UHGV virus genome: UHGV-0104567
Direction: 5' to 3' (one strand)
Source: a virus
DNA length: 11,955 nucleotides
The notes beneath the pieces are model-generated. The model made no database searches and had not been told where the DNA came from. It was given only the letters and a program-made list of their open reading frames with translations. The translations under genes were made by a program, and so were the position numbers. Shown here one piece after another: positions 2,884 to 11,922 of the stretch (positions within the stretch are counted from its first letter, which is position 1; every line of letters begins with the position of its first letter).

Positions 2884-5793
2884 TTATGCCTGAGTACGCA
2901 GCGCTTCAAGGCGGCGCAGGTCGAAGTCGTTCAGTTCGTCGGTGTAGTCAGCAGTGATTGGCGCTGGCCATTCACCTGTGTCGAATCCGGTTGCGATATT
3001 GCGCATCGCTTTGCGGTACTCGAGCATACCCAGCTCCAGTAGTTCAGCGGATGCCTCGATGATGGCGATCCAGTGGTAGTTCTCGTCTTTGTTGACGAAA
3101 ATCCAGAAGAACTGATCCAGCGCTGCGGTTTCGCAGTACATAGCCGCGCTCAGGTGATAATCACGTTCAATAATTTCCCGGTGTAGCCTGGCGCGCAGGC
3201 TTTCCTGCTTAACATTCCACATGCTGATGGTTTTCAGGTCTGCACCTATACGCACGCCATCCAGGTCGATCTCAAGGTCAGGGCGCACACGAACTTCCAA
3301 GCCCGTCTCCTCGTCAAAACCAAAGTAGCTCACCTCAACGGCTCGGCTAGGGTGGGTCAGCAGCATGCCGGCGGTCGGGTGTGCCAGAAGCGCTTTTTGA
3401 ATATTCAGCGCGGTGCTCAGCTGCTGGCGGGTGACCAGCACTTTTCCTTCCGGGTTATCGCGCCAGGCATCCAGCAGTTCGTCGGCAAATACGGCATCTG
3501 GTTTGACTGCCTTCACGGCCTGGATCATGTCTGCTTTGGTACCGGACACTTTCAGTGGTGCCGGTTTCTGTGCTTCCTGAGCCACAAGGTCAGGGTTGAT
3601 GATTGCCAACTGCTCCAGCAGCGCGTCACGGCTGCCGCTGGTTTTAACCGGCGGCGGCAGGGTGGCGTTGTACTCTTTAATGCATGCCTTCATTGCCGTC
3701 GCCGTCTGCTTCTGGTCACCATCAATACGCTGGAAGTCAGCTGGCAGCGCCATATAGTTCTGTGCCGTTTCTTCCAGGTTAGCGCCAAGCGGAACCTGCG
3801 GCGGCAGGGTGGCGTTGTACTCTTCCAGTAACACCTTGATGTCGTCGGCAGACAGCAGCGCCGGCAGGCTGGCATTGTGCTCATCGATAAAGGCGCGCAG
3901 GGTCGCGGCCGTTGTGAATGCGCCTTCAGGGATCACCGGTTCAACGCTGAATTCTGCGTCCAGTAGTTCAGGCTGCAACGCCAGCGCATGCACCAAGTTG
4001 CCCATGTCCAGCACCGCTGAGCGCTCTTTGACGATGGTTTTCTCTACGTGGCGCGCATTGAAGTACATCAGCGAAACGCGCGCATCTTTCACCTGGGTTG
4101 AGCTGATGCCGTTGGCGGCGTGGTAAACCTCGTTTGGCAGCCCTTCATAGCGGCCTGGCTCGAAATAAGCGGGATAAACAACAGCTGGTTCGTCAGATTG
4201 CGCTTCTGGCTCGGTTTGTGCTGCAACTGGTTCGGTTTGGCTTACAGAATCGCTATTTTTGGCGACAGAATCCGTATTCTGGTCTACATCGTCCTTCTGG
4301 CTGGTATCTGACTCTTCACCAGACTCCAGACTGCTTTCGCCTGGCTGTACTTCATCACCAGCTTGTTTTTCATCACTGACAGTTTCTTGAACCTGCACAT
4401 TGCTGGTGGTCTCCGTAGCCTTTTTCGTGCCATGAGTTGCTGAGTTCTGCAGCAAAGCCGTAACGTCGAATATTCCGTTGCCGACATTTTTAACCAGTTC
4501 TTGTTCGACTTTCTGCGGTTGTGCTGCCGCTTCCTCTGCGCGGCGGCGTGCTCCTTCTTCACGCACGCGTTGCAGGTTCTCTTCGTGAGTGCAGAAGGAT
4601 TTGCGCGGAGACTCCTTACCTTCAGGTTGGGGAATTTCCTGTGCTGCGGGTTCAGCCTCATGCAACGGCAATAACTCGACCGCGGAATTGAACGCGGCTG
4701 TCATGGTCTGGTTAACAAATTCCAGGTGAGCGACAGGAGTTAAATGAATATTTTCCGGTGCGATACGTACCAGGTTAAAAATAGCCGTGCGGTTAACACC
4801 CAGAACGCCTGGCTGATTGCGCAGGATGTTGCTCCATGATTTCCATGGTTCTTCTTTTTTGGTCACGATTTCTTTAGCGCGACGAAGAATGCTGCCCGGG
4901 ATCTCGAAGTGGTTGAAGTCCATAGGCAGAAGGGCACACGCAATCTCTAAATCGAGAGTGTCCAGTGTGTGGTGTGCGTCAGGTCCACGGTCAGTGACGT
5001 AACCGCCGTCGGCATTAGTGCCGGAATCAGTACGCTGCACACTACTGATGCGATTACCGGCGGCCCATTCACGCGCCAGGATGCCACGGTCAATGTAATC
5101 AGTCGCCGCCCACATTCTGGTGAAACGGAGTACCAGCGCGAGTTCGTGACGCTTGTCCTGGCTGAACACTTTGCGAATGGCATCGGTGTAGCGCCACAGG
5201 TCTTTGGTGTCGTAACCCTTCACTTCCGGGCAGTTCTCAGCAGCTAACAGCAAGTTCTGGACGTAACTGTTATCAGTGTCCATCTCCAGCGCGCCGATAG
5301 CTTCGTACTCTTCGTGGGTTACGTGGTGGCGCAGTTCGTCGGCGGTGAACTGGGAAAGCAGTTGCTTACGAAACGGCATCTGCACTACCGGGTAGAGGGT
5401 TGAGTCGTCGTCGTGTTCGTCCAGCGTGATGCCAGCGGTTTCTGGCAGCGTTGACTCAGTAGTTATGTGACTATCAACGGTCTGAGCCGTTTTCTCGTCA
5501 GAGTTTTCAGCTGTGACTTTTGGCAGCCAGGTGCGGTCATCGTTCTGCAGTTCGTAGCGTTCGCACCAGGTGTAATCCACTGCGCCTTCTTCCGGCAGGT
5601 CGTCATATACCGGGAAATCGGTGCGGATTGGTTTGGCATAATCTTTACCGCGGCCAGTTTCTTCAATTCCGGCTTCTTCCAGTGCCACATCGAGTTGGAG
5701 ATTGGCGCGCGCTACACTTTTCGCAGTGAACCAAATCACTGCATCTTTCTTGCCAGACTTCTGACTGGCTTTTATCAGATGGAAAAATTCCAT
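2884..5793 (-). CDS. recE: Exodeoxyribonuclease VIII (RecE-like) with C-terminal PD-(D/E)XK nuclease domain
   Basis: 969 aa, ATG at 5793 with SD AGAGGA. N-terminal segments DFPVYDDLPEEGAVDYTWCERYEL and TDYIDRGILAREWAAGNRIS resemble E. coli RecE as I recall it. C-terminal RPDLEIDLDG...GADLKT fits PD-(D/E)XK motifs. Synteny with recT. Confidence 0.8.
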   Translation of the reverse strand: MEFFHLIKASQKSGKKDAVIWFTAKSVARANLQLDVALEEAGIEETGRGKDYAKPIRTDFPVYDDLPEEGAVDYTWCERYELQNDDRTWLPKVTAENSDEKTAQTVDSHITTESTLPETAGITLDEHDDDSTLYPVVQMPFRKQLLSQFTADELRHHVTHEEYEAIGALEMDTDNSYVQNLLLAAENCPEVKGYDTKDLWRYTDAIRKVFSQDKRHELALVLRFTRMWAATDYIDRGILAREWAAGNRISSVQRTDSGTNADGGYVTDRGPDAHHTLDTLDLEIACALLPMDFNHFEIPGSILRRAKEIVTKKEEPWKSWSNILRNQPGVLGVNRTAIFNLVRIAPENIHLTPVAHLEFVNQTMTAAFNSAVELLPLHEAEPAAQEIPQPEGKESPRKSFCTHEENLQRVREEGARRRAEEAAAQPQKVEQELVKNVGNGIFDVTALLQNSATHGTKKATETTSNVQVQETVSDEKQAGDEVQPGESSLESGEESDTSQKDDVDQNTDSVAKNSDSVSQTEPVAAQTEPEAQSDEPAVVYPAYFEPGRYEGLPNEVYHAANGISSTQVKDARVSLMYFNARHVEKTIVKERSAVLDMGNLVHALALQPELLDAEFSVEPVIPEGAFTTAATLRAFIDEHNASLPALLSADDIKVLLEEYNATLPPQVPLGANLEETAQNYMALPADFQRIDGDQKQTATAMKACIKEYNATLPPPVKTSGSRDALLEQLAIINPDLVAQEAQKPAPLKVSGTKADMIQAVKAVKPDAVFADELLDAWRDNPEGKVLVTRQQLSTALNIQKALLAHPTAGMLLTHPSRAVEVSYFGFDEETGLEVRVRPDLEIDLDGVRIGADLKTISMWNVKQESLRARLHREIIERDYHLSAAMYCETAALDQFFWIFVNKDENYHWIAIIEASAELLELGMLEYRKAMRNIATGFDTGEWPAPITADYTDELNDFDLRRLEALRTQA
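3651..3824 (-). repeat. Perfect 27-bp direct repeat inside recE, copies at 3651-3677 and 3798-3824, 147 bp apart (in frame)
   Basis: GCGGCGGCAGGGTGGCGTTGTACTCTT occurs twice, read directly. On the coding strand it encodes the duplicated peptide EYNATLPP, 49 codons apart. Confidence 0.85.
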
Positions 5794-7230: not shown

Positions 7231-7650
7231 TTACTTCTGAATGCTTTGGATGATGTTGGAAACGTCATCCTTGAGGAGATCTAGCTCTTTAAGGGTGGCT
7301 TTTGCGTGAACGATGAGGCGAAGCTTTTCTGCTTCAGGCATCTGGTTGAATAATGAGAGCAAAGCGATTTCTTTTTCATCCAGTTGCCGTGGAGGTTCAT
7401 GCATGCTCAGGTCATCATCACCTGCATCAGGCGGCATAAAAAACCAATGCTCTGGTTTACCTGTGGCAGCTGCAAGGCGTTTCAACCTTTCACCTCGAGG
7501 CGCAGACTCACCTTTAGCCCATTGCTGAACTGCCTGGGGAGTAACCATGGCTCTCCTGGCTATATCAGACATGTTCCAGCCGAATTCATCTTTGATGAGC
7601 TGAAGTCGGTAGGCGAACGCTTCATGAGGTGCTTTTTTCATGGCAATCAT
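7231..7650 (-). CDS. racR: Prophage repressor, XRE-family HTH (RacR-like)
   Basis: HTH segment WNMSDIARRAMVTPQAVQQWAKGE; divergent from a YdaS/YdaT-like pair, as for racR in Rac. Start ambiguous: in-frame ATGs at 7695, 7677, 7650 and 7641, none with a clear SD (possibly leaderless). I chose 7650 because it keeps the 14-bp palindrome intergenic and gives a typical XRE N-terminus. Confidence 0.7.
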   Translation of the reverse strand: MIAMKKAPHEAFAYRLQLIKDEFGWNMSDIARRAMVTPQAVQQWAKGESAPRGERLKRLAAATGKPEHWFFMPPDAGDDDLSMHEPPRQLDEKEIALLSLFNQMPEAEKLRLIVHAKATLKELDLLKDDVSNIIQSIQK

Positions 7651-7680
7651 TCTACAAGGTAGCCTTTCATAGTGCATTGC

Positions 7681-7716
7681 AAATATTATTTTCATTCTTG
7701 ATTGAAAATAATATTT
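7681..7716. promoter_or_regulatory. Operator-like perfect inverted repeat (14-bp arms AAATATTATTTTCA / TGAAAATAATATTT, 8-bp spacer) in the divergent repressor / cro-like control region
   Basis: Read directly. Sits within five TTTCAT repeats (7636-7641, 7665-7670, 7690-7695, 7715-7720, 7735-7740). Candidate -35 TTGATT (7698-7703) and -10 TGTAAT (7723-7728) lie upstream of the cro-like gene, whose SD is GAGG. Confidence 0.5.
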
Positions 7717-7756
7717 TCATGTTGTAATCTCATTTTTCATTCACTGAGGGCTGGAT

Positions 7757-7984
7757 ATGACCAAATCAATCAAACAGCGAGTATGCGATGTCATGACTCA
7801 AACAGAGATCGCCAAGAGTCTTGGCACAACTTCTCAAGCTGTAAGTCTATGGCTGAACCATGAGGTTCCCGCGCATCGAGTGCTCCCGATTTGCAAGTTA
7901 TTGGGATGGAAAATCACTCCACATGAAGTACGTAGTGACATTTATCCCAATCCTACAGACGGGCTGCCAAAACAGGAGTCCTGA
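7757..7984 (+). CDS. ydaS: Cro-like HTH regulator, YdaS family
   Basis: 75 aa; TEIAKSLGTTSQAVSLWLNHEVPAHRVLPICKLLGW matches the YdaS/Cro-type HTH pattern. Divergent from the repressor and followed 3 bp later by the YdaT-like gene. Confidence 0.7.
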   Translation: MTKSIKQRVCDVMTQTEIAKSLGTTSQAVSLWLNHEVPAHRVLPICKLLGWKITPHEVRSDIYPNPTDGLPKQES

Positions 7985-7986
7985 CC

Positions 7987-8529
7987 ATGCATGCCATTTC
8001 ATATCAACAAAATACCGGAATAACTCCGGTGGCGATGATAAATCGCAATCAGCCAAGTGCGGCAGATAAGCACGAACAGATCCGCGATGCCGTTCGTGCC
8101 TGGGCCGCATCACTGGATAACCAGGATGTGGTTGCCGGAATCATCGTTGAAGAATGGGAGAGACAGGGCGGTGCCGGGCTGGATTTTCCAGAAGACCTGA
8201 GCCGTAAGCGTCAGAAACTCTTCCGATGGCTCGATGGTGATACGGAGTATGCGCGCAAAAACATCAGCCAGCTGTCACCCGCGATCCTCGCCGTTCTACC
8301 GCTTGAGTTCCGTGGCCGCCTGGTACCCCAAGACTGCTTTATGACGCGTTATGCAGCGATGGAGAAGGAGATCGGCGAAGCGAAACGCGCGGTAATTCTG
8401 AGGGCGCCACAGCATCAGCTGGTGAAAGAGGTGAGAGAGGGCATTGAACACCTGCTGGCGCTTCTGCCAGGGGAGGCTGTTGTTCAGGTTCTGAGTGGTC
8501 TCGCGGTAATGAGCCCGGGCGTAATGTGA
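7987..8529 (+). CDS. ydaT: YdaT-family protein (historically annotated as toxin YdaT; CII-like regulator by analogy)
   Basis: 180 aa; segment EEWERQGGAGLDFPEDLSRKRQKLFRWLDGDTEYARKNISQLSPAILAVLPLEFRGRL fits my recollection of the YdaT family. SD AGGAG 8 nt upstream of the ATG. Confidence 0.7.
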   Translation: MHAISYQQNTGITPVAMINRNQPSAADKHEQIRDAVRAWAASLDNQDVVAGIIVEEWERQGGAGLDFPEDLSRKRQKLFRWLDGDTEYARKNISQLSPAILAVLPLEFRGRLVPQDCFMTRYAAMEKEIGEAKRAVILRAPQHQLVKEVREGIEHLLALLPGEAVVQVLSGLAVMSPGVM

Positions 8530-8670
8530 GGTGCGCAGTGAATCATGTCGAATTTAAGGTGAAAGCCGCGGTGCGCGAACACCAACGGCTTTCGGGTGCA
8601 AAAACGCGACGTAATTGCGAGGTCATTATGACAAACGCATGTACTAAACACCAGGCAAAAGGGGCATAGC

Positions 8671-9720
8671 ATGTCGAATGTCGCTTATGCCGATTTTGCG
8701 GCACGTAGTGCCATCAGGAGCAACCGGATGGAGAACCAGAAGACCGGATTCATCCCGTTGTACCGGAGCGTACTGAAGAAGCCCTGGGCGAAAGATGTGT
8801 TCCTGCGCACGCTGTGGGAGAACCTTCTTTTGGGGGCTGCGCGCCAGCCCTACACGGCAAACTTTAAAGGCCGTCAATGGCCATTACAAACCGGACAACT
8901 GGTAACCACCTCGGCCGATTTGGGGCTGAAATTATGCGACAGGGAAGGGAAGCCATGTAGTCGTCACGCCGTGGATAGAATGCTGGATATTTTCGAGCGT
9001 GAAGGAATGATTTCTCGCTATGGAGAGAAGCGAAAAGGCACTGTGATAACCATCACAAATTATGAGCAATACGCTCAAAAAACGAGCGATTTACCCGCGC
9101 AATTCCCCGCGCATATTGCCGAGCATTACCCAGCGCATGACGAAGCCAGCAGTGGTGCGGCTTGCGGAGGGTATGCCGCGCATTTACCCGCGAATAAGAC
9201 CGCGCATTTCACCGAGAATCATGAACAACAATGTAATAACAACAATATAAATAATAAGATCTCTTCGTCTCGGAATTCTGATGAATCCCGAAACGAGGCA
9301 ACTCAAAAATTCCTCTCTCGTCACCCTGAAGCTGCTGACGGAATCTACACGCCTGCAGGTAAGTCATGGGGCACCGCTGACGATCTCAAAGCCGCTCGCT
9401 GGATTCATTCCCTGCGCCTGACGGTCAATTCCAGCCTGAGCGAGCCGAAGTGGGTCGAATGGGCTAACACAATCCGTCTGATGCGCGTCCAGGACAACCG
9501 TACTCACTTCGAGATTTGCGACCTGTTCAAGTGGGCCAACAAGGATGATTTCTGGAAAGACAACATCCTGAGCCCATCAAGCCTGCGCAGGAAGTGGGAC
9601 GACCTGACAACCAAGCGCCTGCGCAGCGGTGGACAGGCAATGAAGTCCAATGCGAAGGGCAAGATCGATTTCAACAACACAGACTGGATAAACGGGGTGT
9701 TCGATGAAAAGTCTTTCTGA
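8671..9720 (+). CDS. Phage replication initiator / replisome organiser (lambda O functional analogue; winged-helix N-terminal domain, low-complexity linker, conserved C-terminal domain)
   Basis: 349 aa; SD AAAAGGGG. Immediately upstream of and overlapping the P-like gene. Contains iteron-like repeats and an AT-rich tract in the linker-coding region. An alternative ATG at 8728 has SD AGGAG. Confidence 0.75.
   Translation: MSNVAYADFAARSAIRSNRMENQKTGFIPLYRSVLKKPWAKDVFLRTLWENLLLGAARQPYTANFKGRQWPLQTGQLVTTSADLGLKLCDREGKPCSRHAVDRMLDIFEREGMISRYGEKRKGTVITITNYEQYAQKTSDLPAQFPAHIAEHYPAHDEASSGAACGGYAAHLPANKTAHFTENHEQQCNNNNINNKISSSRNSDESRNEATQKFLSRHPEAADGIYTPAGKSWGTADDLKAARWIHSLRLTVNSSLSEPKWVEWANTIRLMRVQDNRTHFEICDLFKWANKDDFWKDNILSPSSLRRKWDDLTTKRLRSGGQAMKSNAKGKIDFNNTDWINGVFDEKSF
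9087..9265 (+). repeat. Iteron-like direct repeats (TTACCCGCGCA family) followed by a roughly 45-bp AT-rich tract; candidate origin of replication inside the initiator gene
   Basis: CCGCGCA at 9095-9101, 9107-9113, 9176-9182 and 9200-9206, plus variants CCCAGCGCA (9129-9137) and CCCGCGAA (9187-9194), most preceded by TTAC/TTCC. AT-rich tract at about 9221-9265. Confidence 0.55.
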
Positions 9721-10393
9721 GCAGTTGATGAACTGTGATCGCGAGAATTTCCGCCGCATCGCAAACGGTATGCCCGAGGCGCCGGCGGAACGCCCGCAGG
9801 TTGAGCAGACGGCCGAAATTTTTAACGCCCTATTCAGCGCATTGCGCGCCGCGTTCCCGGCCAGCTTGCACAGCTTTAACGACCAGGCCGAGTTCAACGA
9901 GCTGCGTCGCCAGTGGGTGCTGGCATTCCGTGAAAATGGGATCACTACCATGGAGCAGGTGAGCGCCGGTCTGCGAGTGGCCCGCCGCCAGGAGCGCCCA
10001 TTCCTGCCGTCGCCGGGCCAGTTCGTCGCCTGGTGCAAGCAGAGCGGCGGCGCGCTGGGCGTCAACGTTGACCAGGTGATCGCCGAATACTGGGACTGGC
10101 GTAACCGCTCGTTCGAATTCATCTCCAGCGAGCAATTTCCATGGTCGCAGCCGGTCATGTACCACATTTGCGTAGAATTGCGCCACCGCAGCACCGAGCG
10201 CCAGTTAACGCATGGTGAACTGGCACGCGAGGCAGGCGATCTGCTGGACATGTGGGAAAGGCGCGTCACCGAGGGTAAGCCAGTGCCGCCGGTACGCCGG
10301 GCTATTGCCGCACCAGCTGCCGAGCAAGGGCCGACGCCGATCCAGCTGCTGCTGGCCAAGTACAACCGCAACAAGTCGAACGGGATGGTGTGA
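9704..10393 (+). CDS. Lambda P-like replication protein (DnaB helicase loader)
   Basis: 229 aa; long collinear similarity to lambda P as I recall it, e.g. CDRENFRRIANGMPE and RRQWVLAFRENGITTMEQVSAGLRVARRQERPFLPSPGQFVAWC. Start overlaps the 3' end of the initiator gene by 17 bp. Confidence 0.85.
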   Translation: MKSLSEQLMNCDRENFRRIANGMPEAPAERPQVEQTAEIFNALFSALRAAFPASLHSFNDQAEFNELRRQWVLAFRENGITTMEQVSAGLRVARRQERPFLPSPGQFVAWCKQSGGALGVNVDQVIAEYWDWRNRSFEFISSEQFPWSQPVMYHICVELRHRSTERQLTHGELAREAGDLLDMWERRVTEGKPVPPVRRAIAAPAAEQGPTPIQLLLAKYNRNKSNGMV

Positions 10394-10394
10394 G

Positions 10395-10736
10395 ATGGCC
10401 ATAACAATTCGTGAGCAACTGCTGGCAGCACTGCGTAATAACCCAGGGCTTAACTCCGCGCTACTGGCCTCAATGGTTGGCATGACCAGCAAAAAGATAT
10501 CGGGAACGATTAGCGCACTGATGGCCGATGGGTTGATTTCCTGTGAAGGCCGCTATGGCCAGCGTCTGTATAGCCTGACCAGTTACGGAATGCGCTATGC
10601 AGCTGACACAGTACCAGGCAGGAAGATTGGCACGACGAAGTTAATTCAGCGGACGGACACAAACGTGATCTGCCAGGAGTGCCGCAATAGCGCGGTGATG
10701 AAACGAATTTTAAGCGTATACGGGGTGAGAGCATGA
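10395..10736 (+). CDS. Hypothetical protein, possible winged-helix DNA-binding fold (113 aa)
   Basis: ATG 1 bp after the P stop; the track ORF's 5' extension (from 10212) overlaps P in another frame and is rejected. Stop overlaps the next start (ATGA). Confidence 0.5.
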   Translation: MAITIREQLLAALRNNPGLNSALLASMVGMTSKKISGTISALMADGLISCEGRYGQRLYSLTSYGMRYAADTVPGRKIGTTKLIQRTDTNVICQECRNSAVMKRILSVYGVRA

Positions 10737-11730: not shown

Positions 11731-11922
11731 ATGGATAAATTAATCAAACCTACTACCAAAGGTAAACATGATGGTTCATGTGATTATCTTTGCTCGGACG
11801 ATGCGCGATTCATCGTTATGCGCGGCGATTATACGGAAGCGGAAATAATTCAGGCTTCTGTGTACCAAGATGTAATCGACTCGGATGGCGCGGCTGATTT
11901 TGACCTGCTCCCCGTTGATTAG
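11731..11922 (+). CDS. Hypothetical small acidic protein (63 aa)
   Basis: SD GGGGGAG directly upstream; ATG 2 bp after the previous stop. Confidence 0.5.
   Translation: MDKLIKPTTKGKHDGSCDYLCSDDARFIVMRGDYTEAEIIQASVYQDVIDSDGAADFDLLPVD

What the first reader, a model, noticed from the sequence alone, without database searches (positions are those of the whole stretch)
9087..9265. Iteron cluster plus AT-rich tract inside the initiator gene: candidate phage origin
Seen: at least four exact CCGCGCA cores (9095, 9107, 9176, 9200) and two near-copies, most preceded by TTAC/TTCC, then an AT-rich tract at about 9221-9265. The repeats fall in the low-complexity linker-coding part of the initiator gene, giving repeated PAH/PRI peptide motifs. 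Established: lambda ori lies inside gene O as iterons followed by an AT-rich region, and O bound there recruits P-DnaB. Inference: this is the equivalent cis-acting origin, bound by the N-terminal domain of the protein it lies within.
Basis: partly seen in the sequence, partly recalled or inferred. Interest (0 to 1): 0.6.

Follow-up and report, generated by a model that had tools for sequence, protein, structure and literature searches.

The report
Prophage replication origin inside initiator gene
The repeats are real and are very probably the replication origin of an Enterobacter lambda-like prophage, placed inside its initiator gene as in phage lambda but built from 12-base head-to-tail repeats rather than lambda's palindromic sites.

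Summary
Window 9091-9219 holds eight 12-bp head-to-tail units (core CCGMGCAT), not four. They form two arrays of four (9091-9138 and 9172-9219) separated by a 33-bp spacer. An A-rich, easily melted tract follows at 9220-9262, then an inverted repeat at 9267-9294 that is homologous to the one in lambda ori. All of this lies in the linker of an O-like initiator gene (8671-9720), which is followed by a lambda-P-like gene.

Across 67 distinct homologous sequences the layout keeps its register. The peptide it encodes varies (54% pairwise identity, against 90% in the N-domain). Yet the four-fold-degenerate third codon positions inside the units are nearly fixed (0.94 against 0.66). The selection therefore acts on the DNA, not on the protein.

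The N-domain, the repeats and the AT tract are inherited together as one mosaic module. Relatives with diverged N-domains carry different 12-bp cores in the same layout.

The origin interpretation is supported by these computations, but neither binding nor replication was tested.

The twist is the repeat design. The units lack the internal dyad found in the lambda, phi80 and P22 sites. They are short direct repeats in paired arrays around a conserved spacer. I rate this a new variant of a known kind, of moderate interest.

The parts
8671..9720 (+). O-like replication initiator gene. The ATG at 8728 (MENQK...) is the start used in NCBI records, giving 330 aa.
   Evidence: ORF list and translation. 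Pfam Phage_rep_O at aa 19-131, E 9e-13. Hits of 98-100% identity are named 'replication protein' in Enterobacter.
8728..9090 (+). Coding region for the N-terminal Phage_rep_O domain, the presumed iteron-binding domain.
   Evidence: Its codon-position conservation is typical of protein-level selection: 0.90/0.96/0.71 for positions 1/2/3.
9091..9138 (+). Iteron array A: four 12-bp direct-repeat units with core CCGMGCAT.
9139..9171 (+). A 33-bp G+C-rich spacer between the arrays (GACGAAGCCAGCAGTGGTGCGGCTTGCGGAGGG). Its length and sequence are conserved across all iteron subtypes. Its role is unknown.
9172..9219 (+). Iteron array B: four 12-bp direct-repeat units.
9220..9262 (+). A-rich, low-stability tract, the presumed DNA-unwinding element. 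It ends at a GATC.
   Evidence: GC is 0.20. It is the second least stable 40-mer in the window. The top strand has 24 A to 8 T, against 26 to 7 in the lambda tract. It is conserved at all three codon positions: 0.93/0.87/0.88.
9267..9294 (+). Imperfect inverted repeat GTCTCGGAATTC-tgat-GAATCCCGAAAC, the positional homologue of the inverted repeat to the right of lambda ori (lambda 39162-39189).
   Evidence: There are compensatory changes at three pairs. DNA hairpin energy is -7.1 kcal/mol, z -1.85.
9295..9720 (+). Coding region for the C-terminal domain, homologous to the lambda O C-terminal domain that binds P.
   Evidence: BLASTP: 43% identity, E 2e-35, window aa 199-343 against lambda O aa 159-297.
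9704..10393 (+). Lambda-P-like helicase-loader gene, overlapping the end of O.
   Evidence: Pfam Phage_lambda_P, E 1e-48.

Best explanation
Window 9091-9294 is the cis-acting replication origin of a lambdoid (Rac/lambda-like) prophage of the Enterobacter cloacae complex, embedded in the linker-coding part of its own initiator gene. Proposed mechanism (inferred): the N-terminal Phage_rep_O domain of the O-like protein binds the eight 12-bp units (core CCGMGCAT) of the two arrays and builds an O-some-like nucleoprotein complex. Torsional stress then opens the adjacent A-rich tract (9220-9262). The lambda-type C-terminal domain recruits the P-like protein with host DnaB onto the opened DNA. Shown here: the anatomy, the DNA-level rather than protein-level conservation of the units and the AT tract, the linkage of N-domain, repeats and AT tract as one mosaic module, and the positional homology to lambda ori. 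Inferred: binding, stoichiometry, unwinding and origin activity.
For: (1) Context. The window carries O-type and P-type genes downstream of cI/cro/cII-like genes. (2) Position. The repeats and AT tract lie directly left of the start of homology to the lambda O C-domain and of the lambda-like inverted repeat. This mirrors the iterons annotated in lambda record J02459. (3) Selection on the DNA. In 67 distinct sequences, pairwise amino-acid identity is 0.54 in the arrays against 0.90 in the N-domain. Yet four-fold-degenerate third positions are 0.94 identical in the arrays (n=9) against 0.66 in the N-domain (n=49), Mann-Whitney p=1.5e-4. The statistic (position 3 minus positions 1 and 2) is +0.10 in the arrays, against a resampled N-domain mean of -0.22 and maximum of -0.09 in 10,000 draws. 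(4) Pooled logo WWNN-CCG[C/A]GCAT, with 1.05-1.98 bits per core position. (5) No alternative reading frame is conserved. (6) The Kp2b/CUS-3 mosaic junction falls right after the AT tract: about 0.8 identity drops to about 0.4. N-domain and origin therefore travel together while the C-domain and its partner (P or DnaB-like) are swapped. (7) Diverged N-domains carry different 12-bp cores in the same layout, and iteron type partitions with N-domain clade. (8) The AT tract is the least stable coding 40-mer and is A-rich on the same strand as in lambda. (9) Unit-number variants differ by whole units or by exactly 81 bp, as expected for recombination between functional direct repeats.
Against: There is no experimental evidence of binding or of replication for this iteron type, in this work or in the papers I could search. 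The units lack the dyad symmetry that lambda O dimers use, so the binding mode cannot simply be copied from lambda. Iteron type tracking the N-domain clade is also what physical linkage alone would produce. The structure model is of low confidence (mean pLDDT 51). Some relatives keep only two or four units. Either few units suffice or those prophages are defective.
Confidence: 0.8

Rival explanations
1. The repeats are only a low-complexity, tandemly duplicated peptide linker (xPAH repeats) between two protein domains, generated by slippage, with no role as DNA.
For: The repeats are in frame with a period of exactly four codons. They fall in a segment that AlphaFold models without secondary structure and at pLDDT 22-36. 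The number of units varies among relatives.
Against: The peptide is poorly conserved (0.54) while the synonymous sites in it are nearly fixed (0.94 against 0.66 in the N-domain, p=1.5e-4). Ala/Glu and His/Gln/Asn/Arg substitutions are tolerated as long as the core CCGMGCAT is kept. The adjacent AT tract is conserved at all codon positions.
Confidence: 0.06
2. The repeats are selected as DNA, but for a job other than origin firing. Examples would be copy-control or handcuffing sites, titration or exclusion of related phages, autoregulation of O-P expression, or a recombination hotspot for module exchange. The true start site would then lie elsewhere.
For: The DNA-level selection does not by itself say what the sites do. 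Cloned lambda ori fragments are known to inhibit related phages (PMC3349717, abstract). The mosaic junction lies next to the repeats.
Against: The repeats abut a conserved, strand-asymmetric, easily melted tract and the lambda-homologous inverted repeat, in exactly the order found in lambda ori. The only less stable region in the window is the cI/cro operator region. These roles would add to origin function rather than replace it.
Confidence: 0.1
3. The third-position conservation reflects an overlapping gene in another frame, namely the 62-aa ORF 9062-9250 that gives 'PRI' repeats, or an antisense ORF.
For: An ATG-started ORF is present in the window.
Against: That frame is open in only 28 of 62 distinct homologues, and its ATG is kept in 27. 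The other four frames carry stops in most or all sequences.
Confidence: 0.01

Closest known systems
Phage lambda ori (four iterons plus an AT-rich region inside gene O; record J02459)
   Same: It lies inside the initiator gene, between the N-domain and the P-binding C-domain. The order is repeats, then an A-rich tract (same strand bias, about 40 bp), then an inverted repeat containing GAATTC. The C-domain is 43% identical and the partner is P-like. Lambda ori mutants also arise as small in-frame deletions (PMC6022878).
   Different: Lambda has four 18-19-bp sites, each an imperfect inverted repeat, spaced 20-24 bp apart. The window has eight 12-bp direct-repeat units without a dyad, in two arrays split by a conserved 33-bp spacer. 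BLASTP does not align the two N-domains, although both belong to Pfam Phage_rep_O.
phi80 ori (four gp15-binding sites in gene 15; JX871397) and P22 ori in gene 18 (BK000583)
   Same: The gene-internal placement is the same, as are the AT tract and the flank to its right. The phi80 flank AGATCTTCGTCCGAGAATTCTGACGAATCCTCTGAC is near-identical to that of the Kp2b and M37H relatives. The P22 flank CCCCC...GGGGG matches that of CUS-3.
   Different: Their sites are dyad-symmetric: TTCCCG-N5-CGGGAA in phi80 and TTTACC-N5-GGTAAA in P22. There are four copies at about 20-bp spacing and no central spacer.
Origins inside rep genes of lactococcal temperate phages (TP901-1, Tuc2009), from my own memory; the papers are not held in the library
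   Same: As I recall, these are O-family initiators whose origin consists of direct repeats plus an AT-rich stretch within the rep gene. Distant representatives found also show two repeated peptide blocks ahead of an N/K-rich stretch.
   Different: The host range and repeat sequences differ. I could not check unit length or arrangement here.
Iteron plasmids (RepA/pi/TrfA type origins)
   Same: They have head-to-tail direct repeats bound by a winged-helix initiator, next to an AT-rich unwinding element (general knowledge; reviews PMC4980987 and PMC5043065 were listed but not read).
   Different: Plasmid iterons are about 17-22 bp, lie outside the rep gene, and recruit helicase through DnaA and host loaders. 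Here the units are 12 bp, lie inside the gene, and the partner is lambda-P-type.

Membership tests
Lambdoid-phage origin embedded in the O-type initiator gene | The origin lies within the initiator ORF, between the DNA-binding N-domain and the C-domain that binds the helicase loader. | tested here: met
   Phage_rep_O at aa 19-131. The repeats are encoded by aa 141-183, with the AT tract starting at codon 184. Homology to the lambda O C-domain starts at aa 199.
Lambdoid-phage origin embedded in the O-type initiator gene | A cluster of repeated candidate initiator-binding sites (iterons) is conserved as DNA. | tested here: met
   There are eight units. The weight-matrix cluster is 8 hits against at most 3 in shuffles. 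Synonymous-site identity is 0.94 against 0.66.
Lambdoid-phage origin embedded in the O-type initiator gene | An AT-rich, strand-asymmetric unwinding tract lies directly to the right of the iterons. | tested here: met
   GC 0.20, 24 A to 8 T, +3.7 sd in duplex free energy, and conserved at all codon positions.
Lambdoid-phage origin embedded in the O-type initiator gene | A cognate helicase-loader or helicase gene lies immediately downstream. | tested here: met
   Phage_lambda_P, E 1e-48, at 9704-10393.
Lambdoid-phage origin embedded in the O-type initiator gene | The initiator binds the repeats and the fragment supports initiator-dependent replication. | not testable with these tools
   This needs EMSA or footprinting and an ori-plasmid assay.
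Lambda/phi80/P22-type iteron (classical design) | Each site is 15-19 bp with internal dyad symmetry, in about four copies spaced 20-24 bp apart. | tested here: not met
   The same tool finds perfect 6-bp dyads with a 5-nt gap in lambda, phi80 and P22, and none in 9085-9218. The unit period here is 12 bp.
Pfam PF04492 Phage_rep_O initiators | The N-terminal domain scores above the Pfam gathering threshold. | tested here: met
   49 bits against a cutoff of 28.7. PF04492 is precomputed on nearly all of the listed close homologues.

The most novel reading that the evidence does not exclude
A large clade of O-type phage initiators uses an origin design that differs from the lambda textbook case. 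It has two equal arrays of three or four 12-bp head-to-tail units around a 33-bp spacer that is fixed in length and conserved in sequence. This would imply a different origin-complex geometry. One possibility is a head-to-tail filament of monomers. Another is a fold-back in which symmetric O dimers bridge unit Ai to a unit of array B, with the spacer as the apex or as a host-factor site. The clade has diversified into at least six mutually distinct iteron 'alphabets', which could be a natural set of orthogonal initiator-origin pairs.
Probability: 0.3. Interest if true: 0.55.

Novelty: new variant of a known kind. Interest (0 to 1): 0.4.

Why it matters
An origin inside an O gene is textbook for lambdoid phages, so its existence is no surprise. 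What is useful is that this O subfamily is common in Enterobacter, Klebsiella, Salmonella, Yersinia and E. coli prophages. It includes CUS-3 and many Stx2a-converting phages. It appears to use a different site design, namely 12-bp direct repeats in paired arrays with a conserved spacer, for which I found no description in the searchable literature. If confirmed, it would give a second architecture for O-some assembly to compare with lambda. It would offer a simple sequence signature (4-residue peptide periodicity flanking a KPSxGAA motif) for locating origins in prophage annotation. It would also provide a panel of naturally diverged initiator-iteron pairs for specificity studies or for building orthogonal replicons.

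Tried and rejected
- **Overlapping ORF.** I considered this as the cause of the third-position conservation. It is rejected because the frame is not conserved.
- **Hidden dyad symmetry in the units.** None was found, although the same tool finds the lambda, phi80 and P22 dyads.
- **Structure of O.** The AlphaFold model from a shallow 16-sequence alignment was too weak (mean pLDDT 51, pTM 0.32) for fold searches. I used it only as a weak indication that aa 136-215 are unstructured. No sequence relative of O was found among solved structures.
- **Rfam and promoter scans.** Rfam at gathering thresholds found nothing in the window. The promoter and terminator scan of 8300-9800 found nothing notable.
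- **Literature.** Seven searches found lambda and Stx-phage iteron work and the Eru papers, but nothing on this repeat type. The TP901-1 origin paper is not held.
- **Iteron type against N-domain clade.** Types partition cleanly. I do not count this as independent evidence of recognition, because the two are physically linked.
- **Not run.** I did not run a genome-wide scan for 12-bp-spaced cores. Fourteen specified bases would give thousands of chance hits.

Full report
**1. Observation**

The window holds 9 copies on both strands against 3.15 expected.

There are eight units at strict 12-bp period:
- Array A, 9091-9138: TTACCCGCGCAA, TTCCCCGCGCAT, ATTGCCGAGCAT, TACCCAGCGCAT.
- Array B, 9172-9219: TATGCCGCGCAT, TTACCCGCGAAT, AAGACCGCGCAT, TTCACCGAGAAT.
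- A 33-bp G+C-rich spacer (9139-9171) separates them.

The repeat finder reports the two blocks as one 50-nt direct repeat 81 bp apart, and TRF reports a 12-bp period.

I built a weight matrix only from homologues less than 85% identical to the window in this region. It scores all eight units at 12.2 bits or more. They are 8 of the 14 best hits on both strands of the window. That is eight hits within 130 bp, against at most three in 200 mononucleotide shuffles.

The AT tract is real. GC is 0.20 at 9220-9259. The stretch 9227-9266 is the second least stable 40-mer of the window, at -41.2 kcal/mol against a mean of -56.5 and sd of 4.2. Only the cI/cro intergenic region is less stable.

In the gene's frame the units encode 4-residue repeats: LPAQ FPAH IAEH YPAH ... 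YAAH LPAN KTAH FTEN.

**2. Context**

The window is the early region of a lambdoid, Rac-like prophage:

| Gene | Coordinates | Strand |
|---|---|---|
| Integrase | 5-1243 | + |
| RecT | 1760-2878 | - |
| 969-aa ORF (no domain search run; RecE-like by position) | 2884-5793 | - |
| HTH (cI-like) repressor | 7231-7695 | - |
| YdaS/Cro-like | 7757-7984 | + |
| YdaT (in the cII position) | 7987-8529 | + |
| O-like initiator (Phage_rep_O aa 19-131, E 9e-13) | 8671-9720 | + |
| P-like protein (Phage_lambda_P, E 1e-48) | 9704-10393 | + |

Proteins 98-100% identical to the O-like initiator are annotated 'replication protein' in Enterobacter ludwigii, E. cloacae and E. hormaechei.

Only the C-terminal domain aligns with lambda O: window aa 199-343 against lambda aa 159-297, 43% identity. 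The alignment starts at SS(R/E)NS, immediately right of the AT tract.

In the lambda record the four annotated iterons (39034-39118) and the AT tract lie immediately left of the equivalent point. The window feature is therefore the positional equivalent of lambda ori.

**3. Is the DNA conserved beyond what the protein needs?**

Yes. I collected 80 IMG/VR loci, four records from the phage and E. coli collections and the window. These gave 67 distinct sequences that stay in register from the N-domain through the AT tract. Mean pairwise identity by region and codon position:

| Region | Position 1 | Position 2 | Position 3 |
|---|---|---|---|
| N-domain | 0.90 | 0.96 | 0.71 |
| Array A | 0.80 | 0.71 | 0.85 |
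| Array B | 0.71 | 0.72 | 0.83 |
| AT tract | 0.93 | 0.87 | 0.88 |

The N-domain shows the usual signature of protein-level selection. In the arrays the pattern is reversed.

- Amino-acid identity is 0.54 in the arrays against 0.90 in the N-domain.
- Four-fold-degenerate third positions are 0.94 identical in the arrays (n=9) against 0.66 in the N-domain (n=49). Mann-Whitney p is 1.5e-4.
- None of 10,000 resamples of 32 N-domain codons reaches the array statistic.

The pooled unit logo is WWNN-C-C-G-[C/A]-G-C-A-T.

No alternative frame explains this. The shifted ORF 9062-9250 is open in only 28 of 62 homologues.

A second subtype, with core GAGGTAACAAA, shows the same trend less cleanly.

**4. 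Modularity and variation**

Klebsiella phage 2b has a P-type partner and CUS-3 has a DnaB-type partner. They are about 80% identical through the N-domain, the arrays and the AT tract. Identity then drops to background exactly at the end of the AT tract. N-domain and origin are thus inherited as one unit, and the C-domain goes with the partner protein.

Among the 120 closest protein clusters, I measured the distance across the repeats for 114:
- 105 have the full eight-unit length.
- The rest differ by whole units: seven units in two clusters and six units in one.
- Four clusters lack exactly 81 bp, leaving four units and no spacer.
- Two clusters lack 105 bp, leaving two units.

This is what recombination between direct repeats with a period divisible by three should give. 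It parallels the small in-frame ori deletions of lambda (PMC6022878).

**5. A wider family with the same layout**

Relatives with diverged N-domains (48-74% identity by tblastn) keep a common layout. It has two arrays of three or four 12-bp units, a 33-bp spacer, and then an AT tract. The cores differ:
- CCGCACAT in Kp2b, CUS-3, TL-2011a and a Yersinia phage. The many Stx2a-converting phages are placed in this group only by their BLAST matches; their repeats were not read.
- CCGATGAACC in Salmonella phage S.Inf 5-2 and many IMG/VR contigs.
- GTCGAAGG/GACGAGCC in Enterobacter phage BHUENT3.
- GAGGTAACAAA in L126-L142.
- A GTNCAG type in L143 and L144.

Iteron type partitions with N-domain clade, but physical linkage alone would also produce that.

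Many representatives at the 50% clustering level show the 4-residue periodicity twice, on either side of a (K/E)PSxGAA-like motif, down to about 35% identity.

The spacer consensus is AAACCCAGYNNTGGCGCGGCTTTG. It is conserved in length and sequence even where the cores are unrelated. I have no explanation for that.

**6. Comparison with known origins**

The annotated sites of lambda, phi80 (gp15 sites) and P22 (ori in gene 18) are 15-19 bp. Each contains a perfect 6-bp dyad with a 5-nt gap: TCCCTC/GAGGGA, CGGGAA/TTCCCG and TTTACC/GGTAAA. Each origin has three or four such sites at about 20-bp spacing.

The same search finds no dyad in 9085-9218. The window therefore fails the 'classical iteron' feature while meeting every other feature of a gene-embedded lambdoid origin.

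To the right of the AT tract lies the inverted repeat 9267-9278/9283-9294. It is homologous to lambda 39162-39189. It shows compensatory changes at three pairs:
- GC 9 against CG 8.
- AU 11 against GC 8.
- Four Watson-Crick types at the third pair.

Two of these three probably reflect a single ancestral event.

**7. Mechanism (inferred)**

O N-domains occupy the 12-bp units. The complex stresses and opens the A-rich tract. That tract has 24 A to 8 T on the top strand, as in lambda with 26 to 7. The lambda-type C-domain brings in P with DnaB.

Because the units are direct repeats, the lambda model of one dimer on one dyad cannot be transferred. Two alternatives are a head-to-tail array of monomers, or dimers bridging the two arrays across a folded spacer. 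Neither was tested.

**8. Rivals**

- A protein-only repeat is contradicted by the synonymous-site data.
- An overlapping gene is excluded.
- A non-origin DNA role (copy control or exclusion) cannot be excluded, but it would most likely add to origin function rather than replace it.

**9. Verdict**

The existence of an origin in an O gene is expected. The different iteron architecture is the part worth an experiment. I found no description of it in the searchable literature. Older papers in subscription journals could not be checked.

I rate it a new variant of a known kind, with interest 0.4.

Noticed in passing
window 9139-9171, and the equivalent stretch in L001-L144: The 33-bp spacer between the two arrays is conserved in length and sequence in every iteron subtype. 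Its consensus is AAACCCAGYNNTGGCGCGGCTTTG, encoding (K/E)PSxGAA(L). This holds even where the N-domain is 50% identical or less and the cores are unrelated. It could be a host-factor site, a bend or apex, or a protein motif. It remains unexplained.
   Followed up: partly
window 9267-9294: An inverted repeat lies to the right of the AT tract and is homologous to the one in lambda ori. It shows compensatory double changes in both arms across relatives (GAG/CTC against CGG/CCG, and four Watson-Crick pair types at one position).
   Followed up: yes
P0106, P0108, P0112, P0113, P0092, P0117, P0118; L092: Natural unit-number variants exist. These are in-frame losses of 12, 24, 81 or 105 bp, leaving seven, six, four or two units. 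One contig carries three arrays because array plus spacer is duplicated. Whether the reduced origins still fire is unknown.
   Followed up: partly
window 7665-7720: A 25-bp tandem repeat (2.2 copies, TTTCATACTGCATTGAAAATAATAT) lies in the cI-like/cro-like intergenic region. This is the least stable 40-mer of the window. It is probably the operator and promoter region.
   Followed up: no
window 11807-11818 (- strand) and 7865-7876 (+ strand): Isolated 12-mers score as well as true units: ATCGCCGCGCAT at 16.7 bits and GTTCCCGCGCAT at 14.2 bits. The second lies inside the cro-like gene. They may be chance hits or extra O-binding sites.
   Followed up: no
window 8671-8727: There are two candidate starts for O. 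NCBI records start at the ATG at 8728 (MENQK). The 19-residue extension from 8671 (MSNVAYADFAA..RSNR) is nevertheless conserved as protein in diverged relatives (P0115, P0118, P0119, CUS-3), which suggests the longer form is real.
   Followed up: partly
window 9257-9262: AGATCT, containing a GATC Dam site, lies at the right edge of the AT tract. It is conserved in the Klebsiella relatives and in phi80. Lambda has GATTAT at this position.
   Followed up: no
window 10212-10736: This ORF has a winged-helix hit (HTH_24). It overlaps the 3' end of the P-like gene by about 180 nt as listed. The E. coli M37H relative annotates a shorter ArsR/SmtB-family gene starting right after P, so the real start is probably near 10390.
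   Followed up: no
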